Under the pieces are notes generated by a model, which searched no databases, had not been told where the DNA came from, and saw only the letters and a list, made by a program, of their open reading frames with translations. Shown here piece by piece: positions 604 to 41,770 of a DNA stretch of 64,000 nucleotides. Made by a program: the position numbers and the translations under genes. Within the stretch, counting starts at the first letter, position 1; each line of letters opens with the position of its first letter. Source of the stretch: Eledone cirrhosa (taxonomy: Eukaryota); contig CAXHJY010001127.1 in NCBI GenBank assembly GCA_964016885.1, forward strand, positions 50,775 to 114,774, written 5' to 3'.

Positions 604-1600
604 GGTGGTGGTGGTGGTGGTGGTGGTGGTGGTGGTGGTGGTGGTGGTGGTGGTGATGATGATGGTGCTGATGACGATAAATAACGCTTGTGGTATCGAA
701 AATGAAGATGAGATGACGATGATAATAAAGACGGGGATGGAGGAAGATGACGATGATGATGTCGATGATGATGACGGTAGTGGTGGTGGTGGTGGTGGAG
801 GTGGTCTCGATGATGATGATGATGATGGTGATTACGATGGTGAGGGTGATGATGATGGTGGTGGCGGTGATGGTTCGTGGTGGTGTTGGTCATGATGATG
901 ATGGTGTTGGTGGTGGCGCTGGTGGTGTCAATAACGATGGATATGATAATGATGGTGATGGTAGTGGTGGCGATAAGGGTGGTGGTGGCGGTGGTGATGG
1001 TAGTGTGGCGATAAGGATGGTGGTGGTGGTGGTGATGGTAGTGGTGGCGATAAGGATGGTGGTGGTGGTGGTGGTGATGGTAGTGGTGGCGATAAGGATG
1101 GTGGTGGTGGTGGTGATGGTAGTGGTGGCGATAAGGATGGTGGTGGTGGTGGTAATGGTAGTGGTGGCGATAAGGATGGTGGTGGTGGTGGTGATGGTAG
1201 TGGTGGCGATAAGGATGGTGGTGGTGGTGGCGATAAGGATGGTGGTGGTGGTGGTAGTGGTGGCGATATGGATGATGGTGGTGGTGGCGATAAGGATGGT
1301 GGTGGTGGTGGTAGTGGTGGCGATATGGATGATGGTGGTGATGGTAGTGGTGGCGAAAAGGGTGATGGTAGTGGTGGTGATGGTAGTGCTGGCGATAAGG
1401 ATGGTGGTGGTGGTGGTGATGGTAGTGGTGGCGATAAGGGTGGTGGTGGTGATGGTAGTGGTAGCGATAAGGGTGGGTGGTGGTGGTGATGGTAGTGGTG
1501 GCGATAAGGATGGTGGTGGCTGTGATGATGGTGTCAATGATGATTTTGTCGATGGTATGGTGGTGGTGGTGGTGGTGGTATCTATGGTGATGGTGAAAAT
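434..1600. repeat. (GAT)n/(GGT)n trinucleotide tract with an internal ~30-bp GGCGATAAGGATGGT(GGT)n minisatellite
   Basis: Directly visible; overlapping poly-D/G/H/V ORFs are artefacts. Confidence 0.9.
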
Positions 1601-2779
1601 GGCAGACGATCCTTCGGAAGATTATGGTCAGAATAACTTGCGGTGGTGCTGGACATAATAATGGTGGGGGTGTGGATCGGGTAAAAAGCAGAAGGAGAAG
1701 ATGCATAAAAGGAGGAGGAGAAGGAGGGGGGTGAAAAGGAAAGAAGACACGAAAGAAAGAGGCAGAAAGCATGGAAGAAAGAAAGAGATAGAGAGCATAA
1801 AAGAGAGAAAGAAAGAAAAAGAAAAACACAAAAAGCATGAAATAAAGACGTAGAAAGAAAGAGGAAGAAAGCATAAAAGATAAAGTAAAAGAAGCAGAAA
1901 GAAAGCGACAGAAAGAAAGAGGTAGAAGGAAAGAAAGAGAAAGAGGCAGAAGGAAAGAAAGAGGAACAAAGCATAAAAGAGAGAAAGAAAGAACATAAAA
2001 GAGAAAAAGAAAAATAGAGCTAAGTGTGGCGATGTGATAAGATGAAAGACTTTATGTCTTATTCAATTTCTCCAAAATGGCGGCAGGCAAAATGGACGAC
2101 ATATTGTTAAGATTGCAGCAGAGTTAACAGTGTCTTTATCAAATCACTATCGTCATTGGATTGTAACATTACAGTGGTTTACGACTGGCGGCGATAAGTG
2201 GAACTATTGCAGTGGTGTGGGTGTTGGTGGTGGTGATGGTGGTGCTGGTGGTGGTGCTGGTGGTGGGAAGTTGAACTTCTGTGGTGGCGGAACTGGTGGT
2301 GGTGGTAGTGGTTGTGGTGGTGATGGTGGTCATGGTGCTGGTGGTTGTGGCGGCAGCGGTAAATTGAATTTGTGCAGTGGTGGTGTTAGTAGTGGTGGTG
2401 GTGGTGGTGGCGGTAAGTTGAACTTGTGCAGTGGTGTTGGTGTTGGTGATGGCGGTGGTAGAAAGTGGTGGTGGTGGGGTTGGTGGGGTTGGGAAGATGA
2501 AATCTACAGTAGTGGTGGTGCAGTTACTGGGGTTGTGGTGATGCTACTGCTGGTGGTGTAGTGGGGCTTCTGCTGGTGGTGGTGGTGATAGCGGCGGGAA
2601 GTTGAACTTCTGTTGTAGAGGCTACTGTGGCAGTAGTAGAAGTAATTGCACTTGTATTGTAGTAAGCGGACGGATGGAGATAGATAGATAGAATTCGACC
2701 CTAACATTTGACTGGTATTTAATTTATGAAGAGCAAGTTTGACCTTGATGGGATTTGATATCAGAGATCAAAAAGTAGA

Positions 2780-2993
2780 CATACGCATATATATATATAC
2801 ATATATATATAAATAATATATATATATATTTATGTATATATATTTATATACCCGCATGTAGCTATGAAAATAAATCTACGTGGAGAAACACTATCCTGTT
2901 TGAAGTAATTTATAAGGTTGTAGTCACACTCTGATTATTAATATATATACTTCTGATATATATATATACAATATCTAATATGTAACATATACA

Positions 2994-3061
<68 letters not shown>

Positions 3062-3095
3062 TATTTCCTATGATATATCGCTGTTTGGTTGTCAA

Positions 3096-3138
<43 letters not shown>

Positions 3139-3198
3139 ATATATATATTCATATTATATACATTCCCCATATAATATCGCTGTTTGTTTGTCTATATG

Positions 3199-3259
<61 letters not shown>

Positions 3260-3681
3260 TTATATATATATTTATTTATATATATATTTATTTATATATA
3301 TATTTATTTATATATATATATTTATTTATATATATATATTTATTTATATATATATCTATATATTTATATTCATATATATATATATATATATATATTTATT
3401 TATTTATTTATATATATATATTTATATAAATATATATATTTTTAAGGGTATGTCAATATTTATTTATAAAACTGATCTATATTATATTTTGTCTGATGAA
3501 GGCGCGCCTTGGTTTAACTTGGTGTCCTTGAAATATGTATAATGAAATAAATATGGTTTTATAAATATAGTTTCCATTTGTTAATATCGTATGTTTACTC
3601 CAAATAATTGTTGAGTTATAAAAATATTTGCTTGTTGTATCCCAACGATTTAAATAGAACATTTGCATATATATATTTATA

Positions 3682-3742
<61 letters not shown>

Positions 3743-3773
3743 TCATATATTTATATATATATATATTTATATT

Positions 3774-3822
<49 letters not shown>

Positions 3823-3869
3823 ATATTTATATATATATTTATATATATATATATATTTATATATTTATT

Positions 3870-3902
<33 letters not shown>

Positions 3903-3907
3903 ATATC

Positions 3908-3938
<31 letters not shown>

Positions 3939-3955
3939 ATATTTATTTATATATA

Positions 3956-3998
<43 letters not shown>

Positions 3999-4046
3999 TC
4001 ATATACATTCCCCATATACATTCCCCATATAATATCTATGTTTGTT

Positions 4047-4101
<55 letters not shown>

Positions 4102-4252
4102 GTGTATATGTATATATATATGTGTATATGTATATATATATGTGTATATGTATATATATATGTGTATATATATATGTGTATATATATATGTGTATATATA
4201 TATGTGTATGTGTATATATATATGTGTATGTGTATATATATATGTGTATATG

Positions 4253-4319
<67 letters not shown>

Positions 4320-4362
4320 GTATATATATATGTATATATATATGTATATATATATGTATATA

Positions 4363-4394
<32 letters not shown>

Positions 4395-4427
4395 ATGTAT
4401 ATATATATGTATATATATATGTATATA

Positions 4428-4507
<80 letters not shown>

Positions 4508-4625
4508 CATATGTATATATGTGTGTGTCATGTTTTTCGTCAGCTGGGAGGAAATTCAATAAAGTGTCAACTATAAGGGTCTCTCGCCTACTTCACCCCC
4601 ACCACACCATCGCCTGTCGCCTTGC

Positions 4626-4672
<47 letters not shown>

Positions 4673-5110
4673 TAGATAGCTATATATATATATGTATATG
4701 GGCTAGGAAGCAATAATAATGATGATGATGATGATAATTGTAGTAAAAATAATAATAATTATAATAAAAATGATATTAGAAATAAGCAAAAGATGGAGAC
4801 AGAATTGTGTTAATATATTTGTTTGTGTGTGTGTGTATGTACGTATATGTATGTATGTACGTATATGTATTATGTTTGTGGAAGTATGTATATTTGTATA
4901 TATATGTATATAAATATATATGTATGTTTGTGCAGGTATATATATTTGTCTATATATATGTATATAAATATATATGTATGTTTGTGGTAGGTATATATAT
5001 ATATATTTATATATATATATATATAAATATATATATGTATGAATATTTATATGTATATATATATGTATGGATAGTTATATGTATATATTTTTGTGTATAT
5101 ATACACAAAT
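2780..5110. repeat. Compound (TA)n/(TATG)n microsatellite field with short inserts
   Basis: Directly visible. Confidence 0.9.
3485..3549 (+). ncRNA. Type I hammerhead ribozyme motif, family H1
   Basis: TATTTTGT-CTGATGA-(agg...cctt stem II)-GAAA-T-ATGT-A-TA-ATGAAATA; stem I 8 bp with two G-U pairs; homologues at 42061, 58297, 59305. Confidence 0.65.
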
Positions 5111-5254
5111 ATACATACGTGCCCTTATACAAAGGGTTTTATTGTTTCTTATGATTGATCATTTGAAATACTGGCTGTGTTTTTAGGGGACAGAATTATA
5201 TAACATGGCAAATATGTTATTAAATCAACGATGTCCTATATAGGGGACGACAAC

Positions 5255-5940
5255 AATAACCACAATACTGATGAAACCCACCTCCACCACCACCACCTCC
5301 ACCACCACCACCACCACCACCATCACTTACACCACCACCACCACCACCACCATCATCGTATTTGGGAAGAACAACAACAATATTGAGGACCCCATCACCA
5401 CCACCACCACCACCACCTCCACCACCACCACCACCATCACTTCCACCACCACCACCACCACCATCATCGTATTAAAAGATAACAACCTCAATAACAATAC
5501 CATGAGCAATATTAAAGAAGACAACAACAACAATGACAACAACAGCAACAACACAAACAATATTCCCGGCACCACCACCACCACCATCACCATCAACAAC
5601 ATGAAATACCACGTGACCAATATTAAAGGCAACAACAACGACAATAGCAACATCGACCACAATACCACGTGACCAATATTAAAGACAACAACAACAATAC
5701 TAAGGTCATCAACACCAGCAGCAGTATTATCAACAACAACAACACCACCACCATCAATATACAAGGGACCAACCACAATAGCAACATCAACAACTACACC
5801 ACATGACCAACGTTAAAGACAACAACAACAATAGCAACAACACCAACAACAACATGAAAAATATTAAACCTCGACACCACCAACGGCAACAACAACAACA
5901 ACAACACCATCAGCAGCGTTAACGACGATAACAATAATAA
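5255..5940. repeat. (ACC)n/(AAC)n low-complexity tract
   Basis: Directly visible. Confidence 0.85.
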
Positions 5941-5944
5941 TAAA

Positions 5945-6828
5945 TGTTTCTACATTTGGCACAAGGCCAGCAATTATCCCAGTGCATTACTGGTACTTTA
6001 TTTTATAGACCCCCGTAAGGATGAAAGCCAAAGTTAACCTCGGCGGGATTTGAACTCATATCATAAAGGGAGGTAACTCTATGCTGCAAAGCATGGCATC
6101 CGACCCTCCACCGTTACTGCCAATTCACTACCCAAATAATAATTGTTTCTACTTTAGGCGAAAGGCCAGCAATTATCCCAGTGTATTACTGGTACTTTAT
6201 TGTATCGACCCCGTAAGGATGAAAGGCAAAGTTAACTTCAGCGGGATTTGAATTCAGACCATAAAGGGCCGTAACTGTTTGCTGCAAAGCATGGCGTCCG
6301 ACTCTGATTCCATTTATTTGCCACAAGGGCCGACATGTAGGGGACAATACAAAGACAGGGACAGTGGGGGGTTACAATAAGGTCGAGTAAAAGTGCACAC
6401 TGGCAAGACTAATTTAACAATGGAGATATAAAAATATAAAATAACAACAATTGTTTCTACTTTTGGCACAAGGCCAGCAAATTACTCAGTGTATTACTGG
6501 TACTTTATTTTATCGACCCTGTAAGGATGAAAGGCAAAGTTAACCTCAGCGGGATTTGAACTCAGAATGGCAAGGGACGTAACTCTATGTGTCAAAGCAT
6601 GGCGTCCGACCCTCTACCGATTGCCATTAGATTAAATAAAACGAATTAATTATACATACATACATATATATATATATATAAAAAAAAGAAAGGTGAACAG
6701 AATAAAGGAATGAAAGAACGAAGGAATGAGAGTTTGTCTTTTTCTTCGTTTCAAATACTTCTATTCGGTTAATCCAGAATTCTTGTTCGGTTTCAAGACA
6801 ATTTCTTGATACTGCCAATCCACCGCCC
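5945..6828 (-). mobile_element. Cluster of three SINE family A copies
   Basis: Reverse complement of the A-box-like TGGCAGTATCGG, B-box GAGTTCAAATCC, central gcctttcatccttacggggtcgataaa and 3' tgtgccaaaagtagaaaca(att)n. Confidence 0.8.
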
Positions 6829-7167
6829 TAAACAATAATAATAATAATCACTCGCATTAAAAACAAGAAAAAACAGCAATATTAACATCAGCAATATTAA
6901 ACACAACAACAACAACAACAACAACAGTAGCAGCAGCAGTAGAAATATCCTAACAACTACTACAGCAAAAACAACATCAACATTATTTAAGACAACAACA
7001 ACAATAACAACAATAACTATGTGTCACCAATAAAGCAAGGACAAATATGAGAGGTGGTAATGTTTACGAGATATCCCTTTTACTAAGTAAATTGCTACAT
7101 CTACAATTACCTTCTTTTATATATATTTATTTTAATATATATCGAGTTATTTTTCATGGCCATAAAT

Positions 7168-7272
<105 letters not shown>

Positions 7273-7420
7273 GAAGGAAGTGTGGTAAGGAACCAGATGG
7301 ACCATAACGCACCAGAGTACTCAATACTTATGGTAGTAGAGTGGGTAATAGGAAAAAGTTTGACTCCGTCTGCAGAGCTCAAGCCGTTTCGATAACTACA
7401 ATCTTCCCATACAAGGAATT

Positions 7421-7477
7421 ACCCCTTGAAAAGTCCAGAAATAGCTGTCGAAACGGCTTGAGCTCTGCTGTCGGGGT
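7421..7477 (+). ncRNA. Hammerhead motif with U3:A8 variant core, family H2
   Basis: ACCCC-TTGAAAA-gtcc...tgtc-GAAA-CGGC-ttgagctct-GCTG-TC-GGGGT; stems I and III pair, stem II is weak. Confidence 0.5.
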
Positions 7478-7689
7478 CAAACTTTTTCCTATATATATAT
7501 ATATAATACAAGGACGAATTATTGGTTGGTGACGCGCGTTTCACTACTCAAGGTTCGATCTGTATAGATCTAGCCCGACTCTGGAATGAAAAGCCCGTCG
7601 TACACCTTTTGTAGTGATGACAGAATATATATATATATATGGTTGTATAATACATGTGTCCCTATATGTTTTTTGCGTGTAGGGATATA

Positions 7690-8078
7690 TACTTTATTAT
7701 TATTAATCTCCCCCCCCCCCCCCGGTCGAGATAAAATTTGGTCGTTTTGACTGCTGCTATTTATAGTGGTAGTAGATTGACCTTCCTGCCTCTGCCTTCT
7801 ATCTTTGCACACGGCACTGGACAGAATTGCTTCCACATCATTCATTCTCATCTCGGGAACAATTTTGAATAGCGCCAGTTCGTAATTCGAACTCGGGAAT
7901 TTTATATTCTCCGAGTGAAAAAACCTTCTGACGAGAGTTTATCTTTTCAATGGAGGCCCGCAAGGACTATCCATTTATTTTTGAGACTCGAAACCGTTCG
8001 GTAAAGGTAACCATAGTAAGTACAGTGAATTTTTTGAAATTTACTTTAAAACTTTTTCTTATTTGCTAAACCTTGATT
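7690..8078. mobile_element. ~390-bp non-autonomous element carrying an HHR on + and a SINE-like segment on -
   Basis: Collinear diverged homologue at 14627-15000 in opposite orientation. Confidence 0.6.
7923..8008 (+). ncRNA. Type I hammerhead ribozyme, family H3, long loop 2
   Basis: ACCTT-CTGACGA-GAGTTT...AGACTC-GAAA-CC-GTTC-GG-TA-AAGGT; predicted cleavage after GUA at 8003. Confidence 0.8.
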
Positions 8079-8081
8079 ATA

Positions 8082-8128
<47 letters not shown>

Positions 8129-8631
8129 ACATTTTCAGGAACCTGACGGCTGAGTTCCGGCCACCGTTTCAAGTAGATCCGATAACTGGTTTTTACCGCC
8201 TCCAATCTGATCTCTCTCTCTGCCCCCGCCCCTCTGTATCTCTCTCTCCCACCCACACCATCTCTTTCTCTCTCTCTCTCTCTGTGCATTCATGTGTGTG
8301 TGTGTTGTATGTGTAAGTGGATAGTTTAAGGTCTTGTCAAGATTAGAATTTTGTTGAGGTTTGATATTATAAATCCTGGAAAGAAAAGATATATTTTGGT
8401 AACACCCAATGTAAATGTAAAATAAACATTTTCATCTTCGACTCCGTCTCCTTAACTAACTACCATCAGAACGAGAATCATGGCTTTTTTTTTTATATAT
8501 ACATTTATTCATTCTTTTAATTAATTTAAATAAGATTTTTTAAAAAATGTTTAATAGAAAAAAATCCAGAAAATTTTATTTATATAAAAACATCGACAAA
8601 AAAATAACTTCGAAATGAAATAATTGAGTTT

Positions 8632-10050
8632 CGGTGGATTGGCAGTCTCGGTAGAGGGTCGGACGCCGTGCTTTCCAGCATAGTTACGTCCCTTTACGGT
8701 CTGAGTTCAAATCCCGCCGAGGTTGACTTTGCCTTTCATCCTTACGGGGTCGATAAAATAAAGTACCAGTAATGCACTGGGTAATTGCTGGCCTTGTGCC
8801 TAAAGTAGAAACAATTATTTATAATAATGAAAATAATGGTTTCTTATATAGGCACAAAGCCAGCAACTTTTAGGCGGGGAGGGGAAAGTCGACTAAATCA
8901 ACCCCAGTGTGTGACTGGTACTTTATTATATCGACCCTGTAAGGATGAAAGGCAAAGTTAACCTCGGCGGGATTTGAACTCAGATCATGAAGGGCCCTAA
9001 CTCTATGCGGCAAAGCTCTACCGATACTGCCAATCCCCCGCCCTTATAATAATTGTTTCTACTTTAGGCACAAGGCCAGCAATTACCCAGTGCATTACTG
9101 GTACTTTTATTTTATCGACCCCGTAAGGATGAAAAGCAAAGTCAACCTCGGCGGGATTTGAACTCAGATCGTAAAGGGACGTAACTATGCTGGAAAGCAT
9201 GGCGTCCGACCCTCTACTGAGACTGCCAATCCACCGCCCTCTCCCGCCCTTATAATAATGATAATAATAATTGTTTCTACCTTTGGCACAAGGCCAGCAA
9301 TCATCCCAGTGCATTACTGGTACTTTATTTTATCGACCCCCGTAAGGATGGAAGGCAAAGTTAACCTCGGCGGGATTTGAACTCAGAATGGCAAGGGCTG
9401 TAACTCTATGCGTCAAAGCATGGCGTCCGACCCTCTACCGATACTGACAACCTCTCGCCCTTATAATAATGATAATAATGATGATGATTTAATTGTTGTT
9501 GTTGTTGCTGCTATTGAATTAAATGAGAAAAGAAAATGTATATTTGTATAGATGGATTGTATTCCATGGTAGTGTTTTATTGGTACAATATATCTTCAGA
9601 TAAAATGTTTAATGGTGTTGTTGTTGTTGTTGTCATCAACTTTTTTTCAAATTTCACTTGGAAAGGAAGGTGAGGGTGGAGAGAGGAGTGCTGCCCCTCA
9701 CCCAGCAGTACATTTGATGAGAGGTCGATGAATGTGGCGAGAATTGCAATATCGGTAGAGGGTCGTATGCTATGCTTTGCAACATAGAGTTACGGGCCTT
9801 GCCATTCCGAGTTCAAATCCAGCCGAGGTTAACTTTGCCTTTCATTCTTACAGGGTCGATAAAATAGAGTACCAGTAATGCACTGGATAATTGCTGGCCT
9901 TGTGCCAAAAAAGTAGAAACAATTATTATCGATTTGTTTCTGAGTTCAAATGTCACCGAGGTTAGCTTTGTCTTTCATCCTTTCGCGGGTGAAATCGATA
10001 AATTAAAGTACCAGTAACACACTTGTGTCCATTTAATCGATTCCCCTCCA
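8632..10050. mobile_element. Cluster of about six SINE family A copies (8632-8818 +, three - copies 8838-9460, 9735-9927 +, partial 9940-10050)
   Basis: Repeated ~190-bp consensus with (ATT)n tails. Confidence 0.85.
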
Positions 10051-29728: not shown

Positions 29729-29762
<34 letters not shown>

Positions 29763-29766
<4 letters not shown>

Positions 29767-29950
29767 AAGTATGACCCCGACGGCAGAGCTCAAGCCGTTA
29801 CGACGGGTAATTCAGTCCAGAAATAGCCGTCGAAACGGCTTGAGCTCTGCCGTCGGGGTCATACTTTTTCCTATTTCCCACTCTACTACCCTAAGTATTG
29901 AGTACTCTGGTGCGTTATGGTCCACCTCGTTCCTTACCACAATTCCTTTG
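29763..29950. mobile_element. H2 family element fragment with fold-back of the HHR 3' half
   Basis: gaccccgacggcagagctcaagccg / cgaaacggcttgagctctgccgtcggggtc; shared tail gagtactctggtgcgttatggtccacc. Confidence 0.7.
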
Positions 29951-30011
<61 letters not shown>

Positions 30012-31821: not shown

Positions 31822-32065
31822 ACGGAAATACTTCATTCACACACACACATTCACACACACACAGACACAGACACACACACACACACTATTAGAACTACAA
31901 CCACCATCATCATCACCACCACCACCACCACCACCACTACTATACACCAATCATCATATTCTACATCATTGCTCACCTATGTTCTGTACCCTGCTGGGCT
32001 GTGTTGACTGATAACGGAATTTCAGGTGAAATTCTTGCGATTTTCTTTTACTTAGTCACACAAGA

Positions 32066-35000
32066 TGGTCTTCTCTACTGTGGCTCATTCCTCTCTCTCT
32101 TTCTCTCCTCCTTCAGTATAGTTCACTCATTCATTGGTTCTCTCTACTGTGGCTCATTCCTCTCTCTCTTTCTCTCCTCCTTCAGTATAGTTCACTCATT
32201 CATTGGTCTTCTCTACTGTGGCTCATTCCTCTCTTTCTTTCTCTCCTATTTAAGTATAGTTCACTCGTTCATTGGTCTTCTCTACTGTGGCTCATTCCTC
32301 TCTTTCTTTCTCTCTTATTTAAGTATAGTTCACTCATTCATTGGTCTTCTCTACTGTGGCTCATTCCTCTCTTTCTTTCTCTCCTTCTTCAGTATAGTTC
32401 ACTCATTCATTGGTCTTCTCTACTGTGGCTCATTCCTCTCTTTCTTTCTCTCCTATTTAAGTATAATTCACTCATTCATTGGTCTTCTCTACTGTGGCTC
32501 ATTCCTCTCTTTCTTTCTCTCCTATTTAAGTATAGTTCACTCGTTCATTGGTCTTCTCTACTGTGGCTAATTCCCCTCTTTCTTTCTCTCTTATTTAAGT
32601 ATAGTTCACTCATTCATTGGTCTTCTCTACTGTGGCTCATTCCTCTCTTTCTTTCTCTCCTTCTTCAGTATAGTTCACTCATTCATTGGTCTTCTCTACT
32701 GTGGCTCATTCCTCTCTTTCTTTCTCTCCTATTTAAGTATAATTCACTCGTTCATTGGTCTTCTCTACTGTGGCTCATTCCTCTCTTTCTTTCTCTCCTT
32801 CTTCAGTATAGTTCACTCATTCATTGGTCTTCTCTACTGTGGCTCATTCCTCTCTTTCTTTCTCTCCTTCTTCAGTATAGTTCACTCATTCATTGGTCTT
32901 CTCTACTGTGGCTCATTCCTCTCTTTCTTTCTCTCCTTCTTCAGTATAGTTCACTCATTCATTGGTCTTCTCTACTGTGGCTCATTCCTCTCTTTCTTTC
33001 TCTCCTTCTTCAGTATAGTTCACTCATTCATTGGTCTTCTCTACTGTGGCTCATTCCTCTCTTTCTTTCTCTCCTATTTAAGTATAATTCACTCATTCAT
33101 TGGTCTTCTCTACTGTGGCTCATTCCTCTCTTTCTTTCTCTCCTATTTAAGTATAGTTCACTCGTTCATTGGTCTTCTCTACTGTGGCTAATTCCCCTCT
33201 TTCTTTCTCTCTTATTTAAGTATAGTTCACTCATTCATTGGTCTTCTCTACTGTGGCTCATTCCTCTCTTTCTTTCTCTCCTTCTTCAGTATAGTTCACT
33301 CATTCATTGGTCTTCTCTACTGTGGCTCATTCCTCTCTTTCTTTCTCTCCTATTTAAGTATAATTCACTCGTTCATTGGTCTTCTCTACTGTGGCTCATT
33401 CCTCTCTTTCTTTCTCTCCTTCTTCAGTATAGTTCACTCATTCATTGGTCTTCTCTACTGTGGCTCATTCCTCTCTTTCTTTCTCTCCTTCTTCAGTATA
33501 GTTCACTCATTCATTGGTCTTCTCTACTGTGGCTCATTCCTCTCTTTCTTTCTCTCCTTCTTCAGTATAGTTCACTCATTCATTGGTCTTCTCTACTGTG
33601 GCTCATTCCTCTCTTTCTTTCTCTCCTTCTTCAGTATAGTTCACTCATTCATTGGTCTTCTCTACTGTGGCTCATTCCTCTCTTTCTTTCTCTCCTATTT
33701 AAGTATAGTTCACTCATTCATTGGTCTTCTCTACTGTGGCTCATTCCTCTCTTTCTTTCTCTCCTATTTAAGTATAGTTCACTCATTCATTGGTCTTCTC
33801 TACTGTGGCTCATTCCTCTCTTTCTTTCTGTCCTTCTTCAGTATAGTTCACTCATTCATTGGTCTTCTCTACTGTGGCTCATTCCTCTCTTTCTTTCTCT
33901 CCTCCTTCAGTATAGTTCACTCATTCATTGGTCTTCTCTACTGTGGCTCATTCCTCTCTTTCTTTCTCTCCTCCTTCAGTATAGTTCACTCATTCATTGG
34001 TCTTCTCTACTGTGGCTCATTCCTCTCTTTCTGTCTCTCCTCCTTCAGTATAGTTCACTCATTCATTGGTCTTTTCTACTGTGGCTCATTCCTCTCTTTC
34101 TTTCTCTCCTCCTTCAGTATAGTTCACTCATTCATTGGTCTTCTCTACTGTGGCTCATTCCTCTCTTTCTTTCTCTCCTCCTTCAGTATAGTTCACTCAT
34201 TCATTGGTCTTCTCTACTGTGGCTCATGCCTCTCTTTCTTTCTCTCCTCCTTCAGTATAGTTCACTCATTCATTGGTCTTCTCTACTGTGGCTCATTCCT
34301 CTCTTTCTTTCTCTCCTCCTTCAGTATAGTTCACTCATTCATTGGTCTTCTCTACTGTGGCTCATTCCTCTCTTTCTTTCTCTCCTCCTTCAGTATAGTT
34401 CACTCATTCATTGGTCTTCTCTACTGTGGCTCATTCCTCTCTTTCTTTCTCTCCTCCAGTATAGTTCACTCATTCATTGGTCTTCTCTACTGTGGCTCAT
34501 TCCTCTCTTTCTTTCTCTCCTCCTTCAGTATAGTTCACTCATTCATTGGTCTTCTCTACTGTGGCTCATTCCTCTCTTTCTTTCTCTCCTCCTTCAGTAT
34601 AGTTCACTCATTCATTGGTCTTCTCTACTGTGCCTCATTCCTCTCTTTCTTTCTCTCCTCCTTCAGTATAGTTCACTCATTCATTGGTCTTCTCTACTGT
34701 GGCTTATTCCTCTCTTCCTTTCTCCCCTCCTTCAGTATAGTTCACTCATTCATTGGTCTTCTCTACTGTGGCTCATTCCTCTCTTTCTTTCTCTCCTCCT
34801 TCAGTATAGTTCACTCATTCATTGGTCTTCTCTACTGTGGCTCATTCCTCTCTTTCTTTCTCTCCTCCTTCAGTATAGTTCACTCATTCATTGGTCTTCT
34901 CTACTGTGCCTCATTCCTCTCTTTCTTTCTCTCCTCCTTCAGTATAGTTCACTCATTCATTGGTCTTCTCTACTGTGGCTTATTCCTCTCTTTCTTTCTC

Positions 35001-37200
35001 CCCTCCTTCAGTATAGTTCACTCATTCATTGGTCTTCTCTACTGTGGCTTATTCCTCTCTTTCTTTCTCCCCTCCTTCAGTATAGTTCTCTCATTGATTG
35101 GTCTTCTCTACTGTGGCTCATTCCTCTCTTTCTTTCTCTCCTCCTTCAGTATAGTTCACTCATTCATTGGTCTTCTCTACTGTGGCTCATTCCTCTCTTT
35201 CTTTCTCTCCTCCTTCAGTATAGTTCACTCATTCATTGGTCTTCTCTACTGTGGCTCATTCCTCTCTTTCTTTCTCTCCTCCTTCAGTATAGTTCACTCA
35301 TTCATTGGTCTTCTCTACTGTGGCTCATTCCTCTCTTTCTTTCTCTCCTCCTTCAGTATAGTTCACTCATTCATTGGTCTTCTCTACTGTGGCTCATTCC
35401 TCTTTTTCTTTCTCTCCTCCTTCAGTATAGTTCACTCATTCATTGGTCTTCTCTACTGTGGCTCATTCCTCTCTTTCTTTCTCTCCTCCTTCAGTATAGT
35501 TCACTCATTCATTGGTCTTCTCTACTGTGGCTCATGCCTCTCTTTCTTTCTCTCCTCCTTCAGTATAGTTCACTCATTCATTGGTCTTCTCTACTGTGGC
35601 TCATTCCTCTCTTTCTTTCTCTCCTCCTTCAGTATAGTTCACTCATTCATTGGTCTTCTCTACTGTGGCTCATTCCTCTCTTTATTTCTCTCCTCCTTCA
35701 GTATAGTTCACTCATTCATTGGTCTTCTCTACTGTGGCTCATTCCTCTCTTTCTTTCTCTCCTCCTTCAGTATAGTTCTCTCATTCATTGGTCTTCTCTA
35801 CTGTGGCTCATGCCTCTCTTTCTTTCTCTCCTCCTTCAGTATAGTTCACTCATTCATTGGTCTTCTCTACTGTGGCTCATTCCTCTCTTTCTTTCTCTCC
35901 TCCTTCAGTATAGTTCACTCATTCATTGGTCTTCTCTACTGTGGCTCATTCCTCTCTTTCTTTCTCTCCTCCAGTATAGTTCACTCATTCATTGGTCTTC
36001 TCTACTGTGGCTCATTCCTCTCTTTCTTTCTCTCCTCCAGTATAGTTCACTCATTCATTGGTCTTCTCTACTGTGGCTCATTCCTCTCTTTCTTTCTCTC
36101 CTCCAGTATAGTTCACTCATTCATTGGTCTTCTCTACTGTGGCTCATTCCTCTCTTTCTTTCTCTCCTCCTTCAGTATAGTTCACTCATTCATTGGTCTT
36201 CTCTACTGTGGCTCATTCCTCTCTTTCTTTCTCTCCTCCAGTATAGTTCACTCATTCATTGGTCTTCTCTACTGTGGCTCATTCCTGTCTTTCTTTCTCT
36301 CCTCCTTCAGTATAGTTCACTCATTCATTGGTCTTCTCTACTGTGGCTCATTCCTCTCTTTATTTCTCTCCTCCTTCAGTATAGTTCACTCATTCATTGG
36401 TCTTCTCTACTGTGGCTCATTCCTCTCTTTCTTTCTCTCCTCCTTCAGTATAGTTCTCTCATTCATTGGTCTTCTCTACTGTGGCTCATGCCTCTCTTTC
36501 TTTCTCTCCTCTTTCAGTATAGTTCACTCATTCATTGGTCTTCTCTACTGTGGCTCATTCCTCTCTTTCTTTCTCTCCTCCTTCAGTATAGTTCACTCAT
36601 TCATTGGTCTTCTCTACTGTGGCTCATTCCTCTCTTTCTTTCTCTCCTCCAGTATAGTTCACTCATTCATTGGTCTTCTCTACTGTGGCTCATTCCTCTC
36701 TTTCTTTCTCTCCTCCTTCAGTATAGTTCACTCATTCATTGGTCTTCTCTACTGTGTCTCATTCCTCTCTTTCTTTCTCTCCTCCAGTATAGTTCACTCA
36801 TTCATTGGTCTTCTCTACTGTGGCTCATTCCTCTCTTTCTTTCTCTCCTCCAGTATAGTTCACTCATTCATTGGTCTTCTCTACTGTGGCTCATTCCTCT
36901 CTTTCTTTCTCTCCTCCTTCAGTATAGTTCACTCATTCATTGGTCTTCTCTACTGTGGCTCATTCCTCTCTTTCTTTCTCTCCTCCTTCAGTATAGTTCA
37001 CTCATTCATTGGTCTTCTCTACTGCAGCTCATTCCTCTCTTTCTTTCTCTCCTCCTTCAGTATAATTCACTCATTCATTGGTCTTCTCTACTGTGGCTCA
37101 TTCCTCTCTCTCTTTCTCTCCTCCTTCAGTATAGTTCACTTATTCATTGGTCTTCTCTACTGCAGCTCATTCCTTTCTTTCTTTCTCTCCTTCTTCATTC
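32066..37200. repeat. 69-bp tandem satellite, roughly 75 units
   Basis: Unit ggtcttctctactgtggctcattcctctctttctttctctcctccttcagtatagttcactcattcatt, with 66-bp deletion variants. Confidence 0.97.
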
Positions 37201-40660: not shown

Positions 40661-40696
<36 letters not shown>

Positions 40697-40698
<2 letters not shown>

Positions 40699-40820
40699 CA
40701 ATAAAGGTATGGTAAGACACAAGGTGGAGCACGACGCACCAGAGTACTCAATACTTAGGATACTTCAGATCTAGCTACCGAAACGACCGAAGTTCTGCCG
40801 TCGGGGTCCTGACTCTTTTC

Positions 40821-40873
<53 letters not shown>

Positions 40874-41064
40874 ACAGAAACTAATTAGTTGGAGTGAAAA
40901 TGTTAGTAAGTAAGTTGATTTTTAAATTTTAAAATTTTCTTATTTTACGTCTTTCATATAATTGTTCTGCATCCCCCTGCATAGAACCACAAAGGTACTA
41001 AGACATAACATATATATTTGCTAGCATAGGTGAACATCTGTACACATATGTTGGTAAATGTACT

Positions 41065-41157
<93 letters not shown>

Positions 41158-41563
41158 ATAATACTAATATATATGTAGTAAGAAACACAGTAAATCGTGT
41201 GTCTAATATTACGAGGGTTGAAAGACTACATTTGTTTGAAATATTTAACCAAGTTAAATATTTCAAACAAATGTAGTCTTTCAACCCTCATAATATTAGA
41301 CACACGATTTACTGTGTTTCTTACTACATATATATTAGTATTATTATAATGCTCAGTATTTATACTTTGAGCTTATTGATTACAGGGTTTCAGTATGAGT
41401 TATTAACTCTAACTTTCATTTATATATATATATATATATAACAATGAGGGTATGGTAAGACACTAGGTGGAGCATAACGCACCAGAGTACTCAATACTTA
41501 GGATACTTCAGATCTAGCTATCGAAACGGCCGAAGTTCTGCCGTCGGGGTCCTGACTCTTTTC

Positions 41564-41603
<40 letters not shown>

Positions 41604-41725
41604 CAATGAGGGTATGGTAAGACACAAGGTGGAGCATAAAGCACCAGAGTACTCAATACTTAGGATACTTCAGATCTAACTATCGAAACGGCCGAAGTTC
41701 TGCCGTCGGGGTCCTGACTCTTTTC

Positions 41726-41728
<3 letters not shown>
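40697..41728 (+). repeat. Three ~127-bp H2-family units (40697-40823, 41441-41567, 41602-41728), each bounded by (TA)n
   Basis: acaatgagggtatggtaagacac...cgaaacggccgaagttctgccgtcggggtcctgactcttttcatt. Confidence 0.85.
41154..41348. repeat. Near-perfect ~195-bp palindrome
   Basis: Arms are reverse complements around aaccaagtt at about 41251. Confidence 0.9.

Positions 41729-41770
<42 letters not shown>

What the first reader, a model, noticed from the sequence alone, without database searches (positions are those of the whole stretch)
7690..8078. Two-faced element: HHR on one strand, SINE-like module on the other
Seen: two diverged copies (here and 14627-15000) join an H3 ribozyme to an oppositely oriented segment with a B-box-like GAGTTC(G/A)AAT, a ta(g/t)aaatagcagcagtc motif and an (AAT)n end. 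Stems change in a compensated way between copies (ACCTT/AAGGT vs GCCTT/AAGGC; GAGTTT/AGACTC vs AGCTCC/GGAGCT). Inference: a SINE-derived piece captured by a PLE-type terminal repeat and then amplified as a unit.
Basis: partly seen in the sequence, partly recalled or inferred. Interest (0 to 1): 0.7.

Follow-up and report, generated by a model that had tools for sequence, protein, structure and literature searches.

The report
Hammerhead retrozyme, not a SINE chimera
These are two copies of a 487-base non-coding repeat, found thousands of times in this animal genome, that carries a predicted self-cutting RNA and is likely spread by Penelope-type jumping genes; the supposed SINE half is likely an inherited part of that same RNA strand, so this is a new family of a known kind.

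Summary
The sequence features are real; the SINE reading mostly fails. Both stretches are copies of a 487-bp tandem unit (three or more subfamilies, 72-94% alike) with a type I hammerhead. Its 3'-end word occurs 2,615 times, and arrays reach about 19 units. Hammerhead-strand 3' ends fall at two fixed sites that join (TA)n, while 5' ends scatter: a Penelope-like footprint. The (AAT)n 'SINE tail' is the second of those ends, on the other strand. The module does not travel alone (28 of 30 module-picked loci run through the ribozyme; 0 hits in 600 kb). Its motif is a G-U-rich hairpin of the hammerhead strand with a variable loop, kept at the same place in sister hammerhead families. The B-box word is absent from the youngest subfamily. 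No RNA data and no partner element were found. The scan has noted many such families elsewhere in this genome, but not this sequence.

The parts
7637..8077 (+). Copy 1 (subfamily A): 5'-truncated monomer, about positions 51-487 of the 487-bp unit, (TA)n on both sides
7693..7705 (+).
   Evidence: 48 of 161 segment 3' ends at unit positions 101-130
7724..7782 (+). Block conserved in sister hammerhead families, just 3' of the second fixed end; candidate binding site of the copying enzyme (inferred)
   Evidence: fold z -4.3 on + against -0.9 on -
7750..7773 (+).
7885..7894 (-). B-box-like word; overlaps the 5' arm of a conserved hairpin; absent in subfamily C and the youngest array
7891..7916 (+). 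Conserved hairpin just before hammerhead stem I (22 of 26 neighbouring columns invariant in four subfamily sequences)
7923..8008 (+). Type I hammerhead with long stem II; predicted cut between 8003 and 8004
14510..15016 (-). Copy 2 long arm (subfamily B): unit positions about 82-487 plus a tail of positions 1-122 ending in (TA)n
14578..14635 (+).
   Evidence: 13.9 bits against 21.7-26.5 for host genes; 3 of 400 shuffles
14691..14772 (-). Type I hammerhead of copy 2, U-U at the base of stem II, palindromic short stem III
14802..14811 (+). B-box-like word of copy 2
14923..14944 (-). Motif hairpin of copy 2; 14 bases match an old SINE-like repeat antisense
15017..15156 (+). Copy 2 short inverted arm, starts inside stem II, ends at the main fixed 3' end in (TA)n
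24300..24900 (-). Copy of a distant sister family with the same order of parts (motif hairpin 24829-24843, hammerhead 24615-24693); boundaries approximate

Best explanation
This is a 487-bp non-coding tandem repeat with a type I hammerhead fold, present in thousands of pieces, that is likely transcribed on the hammerhead strand, predicted to self-cleave into monomers or circles, and likely pasted into (TA)n by a Penelope-like reverse transcriptase starting at two fixed internal sites; the 'SINE-like module' is likely an inherited part of that RNA. Shown: unit length, copy number, arrays, two fixed 3' ends, scattered 5' ends, inverted arms, compensated hammerhead stems, co-occurrence of the halves, and a conserved block in sister families. 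Inferred: transcription, cleavage, circles, the enzyme, and the role of the conserved block (AAT tract, then hairpin) as the enzyme's binding site just 3' of its start point, by analogy with the lizard element PAc.
For: Unit and arrays. Ends: 102 of 161 segment 3' ends at unit position 471-487/1-10 and 48 at 101-130, mostly followed by TA-rich sequence; 5' starts spread over the unit (the first peak is inflated by how loci were picked, the second was not selected). 138 of 161 segments span the predicted cut site and 6 start within 4 bases of it, about 3 expected if even, so the template was a circle or an uncut multimer. One two-armed array has 10 of 10 full units identical. Core intact in 43 of 55 A, 38 of 41 B, 5 of 5 C pieces. 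Motif hairpin: commonest pairs in three subfamilies are 20 Watson-Crick, 8 G-U, 1 A-C, 1 other of 30, which favours the hammerhead strand; the loop differs in all four subfamily sequences. Module fold z -2.3 to -3.4 on the hammerhead strand against -0.2 to -1.8 on the other for 5 of 6 group sequences. Of 15 other motif sites, 6 have a hammerhead descriptor match downstream on the same strand (one poor), 0 on the opposite strand, background 17 per 1,000. Tail, inverted arms and (TA)n bias are Penelope traits (PMC8557442 passages); internal start with the binding region extending 3' of it is shown for PAc (PMC11167929 passages).
Against: No autonomous partner found: 70 GIY-YIG loci (400 kb, of 150 listed and 10,595 candidates) had no match to the tail profile. 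No A-to-G strand bias in 106 grouped copies. Subfamily C shows no fold preference in the module (z -0.15 against +1.1, five copies), and the B-box region folds equally on both strands (z -2.5 each). The hammerhead strand has 6-10 runs of four or more T, so its promoter is unexplained. Rfam does not recognise the ribozyme. Eight of nine predicted frog retrozymes did not cleave in vitro (preprint 10.64898/2026.07.22.740005), so activity cannot be assumed.
Confidence: 0.8

Rival explanations
1. One reading: a piece of a tRNA-derived SINE was captured antisense by a Penelope-type terminal repeat, giving the B-box, the motif and the (AAT)n end.
For: The exact B-box-like word appears in only 11-13 of 2,000 shuffles. 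Subfamily B has three short blocks colinear with an abundant tRNA-type SINE, reached by 4-8 of 300 random genomic stretches.
Against: A and C score at chance against that SINE (51-76 and 41-269 of 300); its profile gives E 2.3 or worse for B and nothing for A or C; no clean A-box; B-box word lost in C and in the youngest array; the tract is a hammerhead-strand end; no module-only copies.
Confidence: 0.07
2. Ancient borrowing: about 40-50 bases around the hairpin were exchanged between an old, abundant (AAC)n-tailed SINE-like repeat and the ancestor of the whole retrozyme group, antisense, and were then kept as a functional hairpin. This is compatible with the best explanation.
For: The old repeat's profile matches several sister families antisense over 18-40 bases (E 3e-5 to 0.03); with the motif excluded, three copies of sister family D still match the flank (0, 2 and 7 of 150 shuffles); 851 exact copies of the 19-base word exist.
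Against: 30 of 63 training copies were picked by the motif, so one search is partly circular; in the element itself only 14 (B) or 10 (A) bases match and the downstream flank is at chance (40, 61, 87 of 150); the old repeat shows no clear tRNA boxes or Rfam match; direction unknown.
Confidence: 0.3
3. Two-faced in another sense: a U6-type promoter in the tail fires antisense, reads the T-poor strand through the module, and in two-armed insertions crosses the junction to make hammerhead-strand RNA.
For: The best match to a matrix of four host U6/U6atac promoters is at the same antisense place in all six group sequences (13.6-16.4 bits; 1-4 of 400 shuffles); the antisense strand has 2-4 T-runs against 6-10; this stretch is the most conserved (44 of 48); bidirectional Penelope promoters have been proposed (PMC3846280 passages).
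Against: Host genes score 21.7-26.5; 23 sites in 600 kb score as well as the best copy; the TATA is also the (TA)n junction; the test was post hoc; the same stretch is a compensating-free hairpin that can be conserved as an RNA signal.
Confidence: 0.12
4. A satellite spread by DNA recombination, with the hammerhead as a relic.
For: Arrays of about 19 units exist; no RNA evidence and no editing scar.
Against: Dispersed, 5'-truncated copies with two fixed 3' ends and inverted arms; in the old array adjacent units are about as different as distant ones (9.9% against 11.0%; 232 private against 89 shared variants).
Confidence: 0.04

Closest known systems
Metazoan non-LTR retrozymes (Cervera and de la Pena 2020, PMC7229834; parts 2-3 of 6 and passages read)
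   Same: Type I hammerhead in a short, AT-rich, non-coding tandem repeat, thousands of copies, no LTR features; subfamily B has the U-U at the base of stem II described for axolotl HHR_Amex2 and a palindromic stem III loop like HHR_Amex1.
   Different: 487 bp is above the 170-400 nt given there; expression, cleavage and circles are untested here; no target-site duplication can be read in (TA)n.
Retrozymes as non-autonomous Penelope derivatives (bioRxiv 10.64898/2026.07.22.740005; parts 2-3 of 5 and passages read, supplements closed)
   Same: Monomers, dimers and multimers; size within the 51-972 bp range; co-occurs with Penelope-like elements in the genome.
   Different: No homology to a pseudo-LTR of a coding element was found in 70 loci; that study did not cover cephalopods (0 occurrences of the word).
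Penelope-like element insertion structure (Craig et al. 2021, PMC8557442; Frangieh et al. 2024, PMC11167929; passages read)
   Same: Partial tandems, inverted 5'-truncated arm, tail at one end only, (TA)n targets, no pile-up of ends at the ribozyme cut site.
   Different: No reading frame; the tail is about 110-120 bases, against 30-40 described.
tRNA-derived SINEs (definition recalled, not from a call)
   Same: A B-box-like word and a short simple-repeat tract lie in the expected order on one strand.
   Different: No clean A-box or tRNA fold, no free copies, the tract is not a 3' end on that strand, and the B-box word is dispensable.

Membership tests
Non-LTR retrozyme | Type I hammerhead with conserved core and helices | tested here: met
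   core intact in 86 of 101 pieces; compensated stems I and II
Non-LTR retrozyme | Short non-coding tandem unit, dispersed and in arrays | tested here: met
Non-LTR retrozyme | Self-cleavage of the RNA | not testable with these tools
   needs in vitro transcription
Non-LTR retrozyme | Expressed as linear and circular monomer RNA | not testable with these tools
   no RNA holder listed; genomic ends fit a circle or an uncut multimer
Penelope-mobilised non-autonomous element | Fixed 3' ends, one-sided tail, inverted truncated arm, microsatellite target | tested here: met
Penelope-mobilised non-autonomous element | Terminal homology to a coding Penelope-like element | tested here: inconclusive
   none in 70 of 150 listed GIY-YIG loci, 10,595 candidates
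tRNA-derived SINE (module) | A-box and B-box at tRNA spacing | tested here: not met
   B-like word in A and B only; no A-box at one mismatch or fewer; the A-box pattern was also strict for one control
tRNA-derived SINE (module) | Independent dispersed copies ending in the simple-repeat tail | tested here: not met
   28 of 30 run through the ribozyme, 2 stop earlier inside the unit; 0 hits in 600 kb against 114 for a SINE control; 1 of 161 ends at the tract on that strand
tRNA-derived SINE (module) | Homology to a SINE family of the genome | tested here: inconclusive
   weak for B only against the tRNA-type SINE; 10-14 bases against the old repeat, longer in sister families; no curated repeat library was available
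Type III hammerhead | Helix III is the open end | tested here: not met
   helix I is open; helix III is closed by a 3-4 base loop
U6-type promoter-bearing retrozyme (earlier notes of this scan) | Host U6 upstream box plus TATA just ahead of the ribozyme on its strand | tested here: not met
   best sense-strand score 3.5-6.7 bits; the only notable match is antisense

The most novel reading that the evidence does not exclude
A group of large hammerhead retrozymes shares one RNA hairpin, placed just behind the reverse-transcription start, that is the Penelope enzyme's docking signal and was taken antisense from an ancient SINE-like repeat; in this family an antisense U6-type promoter in the tail drives transcription across two-armed insertions, so the mirror-image structure itself is the transcription unit.
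Probability: 0.08. Interest if true: 0.65.

Novelty: new member of a known kind. Interest (0 to 1): 0.3.

Why it matters
As it stands it adds one more retrozyme family to a genome in which the scan has noted many. Its useful content is a concrete, testable candidate for the signal that Penelope enzymes read on passenger RNAs: a block conserved across otherwise diverged families and lying just 3' of a fixed insertion end. A young array with 10 identical units gives a clean substrate for cleavage and circle assays. A true SINE-retrozyme chimera, or an antisense promoter that needs the two-armed structure, would be more surprising, but the evidence for either is weak.

Tried and rejected
RNA evidence: no RNA holder listed; contigs of two runs of unknown kind cover the stretch but cannot show strand or ends. 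Rfam: no ribozyme, tRNA or snoRNA match to the unit at gathering or E up to 10, only simple-repeat noise. A-to-I editing scars as a strand marker: none (A>G 8.8 against T>C 8.1 per kb in A; 6.7 against 8.4 in B). A second, HDV-like ribozyme on the antisense strand: read by eye, no room for P3/L3 ahead of the hairpin; the old repeat's best-kept copies share nothing upstream that could give P1, and Rfam found no such family (the script stopped with an error after printing the loci). Autonomous partner: none in 70 GIY-YIG loci; the hammerhead hit beside a coding element in L371 is a separate (TA)n-bounded 459-bp dimer of a sister family. A loose tail pattern returned only this family among the 100 listed of 1,214 matches. 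The alignment had two wrongly placed rows and was not used. The 'OLD' label mislabelled three family-D copies; counts were redone by row. A possible pairing between the bases before stem I and the stem II internal loop was seen by eye and was not counted, so it stays open. Literature searches for a retrozyme or SINE-hammerhead chimera in cephalopods gave no such report in their listings; subscription papers and supplements were not seen.

Full report
Observation. The two stretches align at 76% over 408 bp in opposite orientation. The stem I swap is real. The B-box-like word, the motif and the AAT tract are at the stated places. The element is longer than flagged: copy 1 starts at 7637, and copy 2 is a two-armed insertion from 14510 to about 15156.

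The family. Searches of the 3.0-Gb genome gave 2,915 and 2,690 candidates for the two copies, of which 40 each were scored. The unit is 487 bp. Exact words occur 2,615 times for the 3' end, 1,214 for the tail pattern and 433 for the module, with controls at 0. Of 117 pieces of 300 bases or more, 57 and 49 fall into subfamilies A and B (83% alike, each about 4% from its majority), with a smaller C group and 11 pieces left out of the mutation count. One array has about 19 old units; another, of C type, has 10 of 10 identical full units on two arms. Earlier notes call the host octopus-type; I did not determine it.

Which strand is the element. In 161 distinct segments from 120 loci, hammerhead-strand 3' ends lie at unit position 471-487/1-10 (102) or 101-130 (48), mostly running into (TA)n, and 5' starts are spread. 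Locus choice inflates the first peak but not the second. 138 segments cross the predicted cut site and 6 start near it, so the copied template was not a cut linear monomer. Partial tandems, an inverted truncated arm, a one-sided tail and (TA)n targets are described for Penelope-like elements (PMC8557442, passages). For the lizard element PAc, copying starts inside the RNA and the needed RNA extends 3' of that start (PMC11167929, passages).

Do the halves travel alone. Of 30 loci picked by the module word only, 28 continue to position 473 or beyond and 2 stop at 337 and 389. The module had 0 hits in 600 kb of evenly spaced genome, where an abundant SINE of the window had 114. A module profile run over 1.04 Mb of non-family loci found nothing better than E 0.08.

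What the motif is. On the hammerhead strand it is a ten-pair hairpin. The commonest pairs in three subfamilies are 20 Watson-Crick, 8 G-U, 1 A-C and 1 other; G-U pairs become mismatches on the other strand. The stretch folds at z -4.3 against -0.9 in copy 1 and -1.9 against -1.1 in copy 2. The four-base loop, the centre of the 'SINE motif', differs in A, B, C and the young array. The weak profile hits proved to be sister hammerhead families with the same order of parts: tail hairpin, A/T tract, conserved block with hairpin, and a type I hammerhead 137-160 bases on; one lies at about 24,300-24,900 of this window and another in L371. Two sister copies also end at the A/T tract (read by eye). I infer that the block is the binding site of the copying enzyme, just 3' of its start; this is untested.

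The B-box. But no A-box is found at one mismatch or fewer (a strict pattern: one SINE control also gave only two-mismatch matches), the word overlaps the arm of a conserved hairpin that has a compensated change in C, and it is absent from C and from the youngest array, so it is not needed for recent spread.

SINE homology. Against the tRNA-type SINE, B scores above 292-296 of 300 random stretches through three short colinear blocks, while A and C are at chance and the profile gives E 2.3 or worse. An old repeat of about 220 bp with an (AAC)n end carries the motif near its 5' end (851 exact words; 25 profile hits in 600 kb). It matches B over 14 and A over 10 bases only, but sister families over 18-40 bases, partly outside the motif. 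An ancient exchange of that short piece is possible; its direction is unknown, and the old repeat shows no clear tRNA boxes.

Promoter. Prompted by earlier notes, I built a matrix from four host U6 and U6atac promoters. This family has no sense-strand match ahead of the ribozyme, unlike sister families found. The best match is antisense, in the tail, at 13.6-16.4 bits against 21.7-26.5 for host genes left out in turn; 1-4 of 400 shuffles and 23 sites in 600 kb reach it. It is a lead, not a finding.

What failed. No RNA holder was listed, no editing bias was seen, and no coding partner was found in 70 GIY-YIG loci.

Comparison and verdict. It works like, and by the testable features belongs to, the animal non-LTR retrozymes (PMC7229834, parts 2-3 of 6 and passages; bioRxiv 10.64898/2026.07.22.740005, parts 2-3 of 5 and passages). 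Cleavage, expression and circles were not testable. Searches listed no report of this family or of a SINE-hammerhead chimera in cephalopods; only listings were seen for the other papers, and no supplements. New member of a known kind; interest 0.3.

Noticed in passing
window 24300-24900 (-); L065, L080, L104, L073: Distant sister hammerhead family with the same order of parts; it also has a U6-box-like word on its sense strand followed by TATA at a much shorter spacing than host U6 genes. No look-alike in earlier notes.
   Followed up: partly
window 21971-22176 (+); L151-L180, L363-L369: Old, abundant ~220-bp repeat with a fixed 5' start, a GAAA-capped hairpin near it and an (AAC)n end; no clear tRNA boxes, no Rfam match; its head recalls part of an HDV-type fold but lacks P1.
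   Followed up: partly
L303:2034-7840 (G000:C1 near 149.205-149.211 Mb): Very young two-armed array of this family, 10 identical full units, both ends at the two fixed sites in (TA)n.
   Followed up: yes
window 7915-7922 and 7944-7950 (+): Bases just before hammerhead stem I are complementary to the 5' side of the stem II internal loop, and subfamily B seems to change both sides together; a possible loop-loop pseudoknot, seen by eye.
   Followed up: no
L108:about 890-9770 (-): 556-bp tandem array with a hammerhead-like core that shares the 3' part and the tail hairpin with this family but has an unrelated middle.
   Followed up: partly
L371:5500-6420 (+); L109: 459-bp dimer of another sister family nested in the (TA)n after a coding Penelope-like element; its hammerhead matches this family's profile at E 2e-7.
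   Followed up: partly
window 7250-7505, with relatives at 29746-29972, 45470-45694, 40677-41740, 57424-57567: Abundant inverted-repeat element beside copy 1 (67 hits in 600 kb) with a degenerate hammerhead-like stretch; a separate Penelope-type passenger.
   Followed up: no
window 31900-37000: Tandem array of a 69-bp unit, about 74 copies, 92-100% alike.
   Followed up: no
window 3488-3546 (+) and 18957-19013 (+): Two more type I hammerhead descriptor matches in other (TA)n-flanked repeats.
   Followed up: no
L089, L131, L147, L076, L183: Further (TA)n-flanked repeats that carry the same hairpin and conserved block but no standard hammerhead core within 330 bases.
   Followed up: partly
L313-L332 against L271-L273, L305: Host U2 genes lack the upstream box shared by U6 and U6atac genes at that position.
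   Followed up: no
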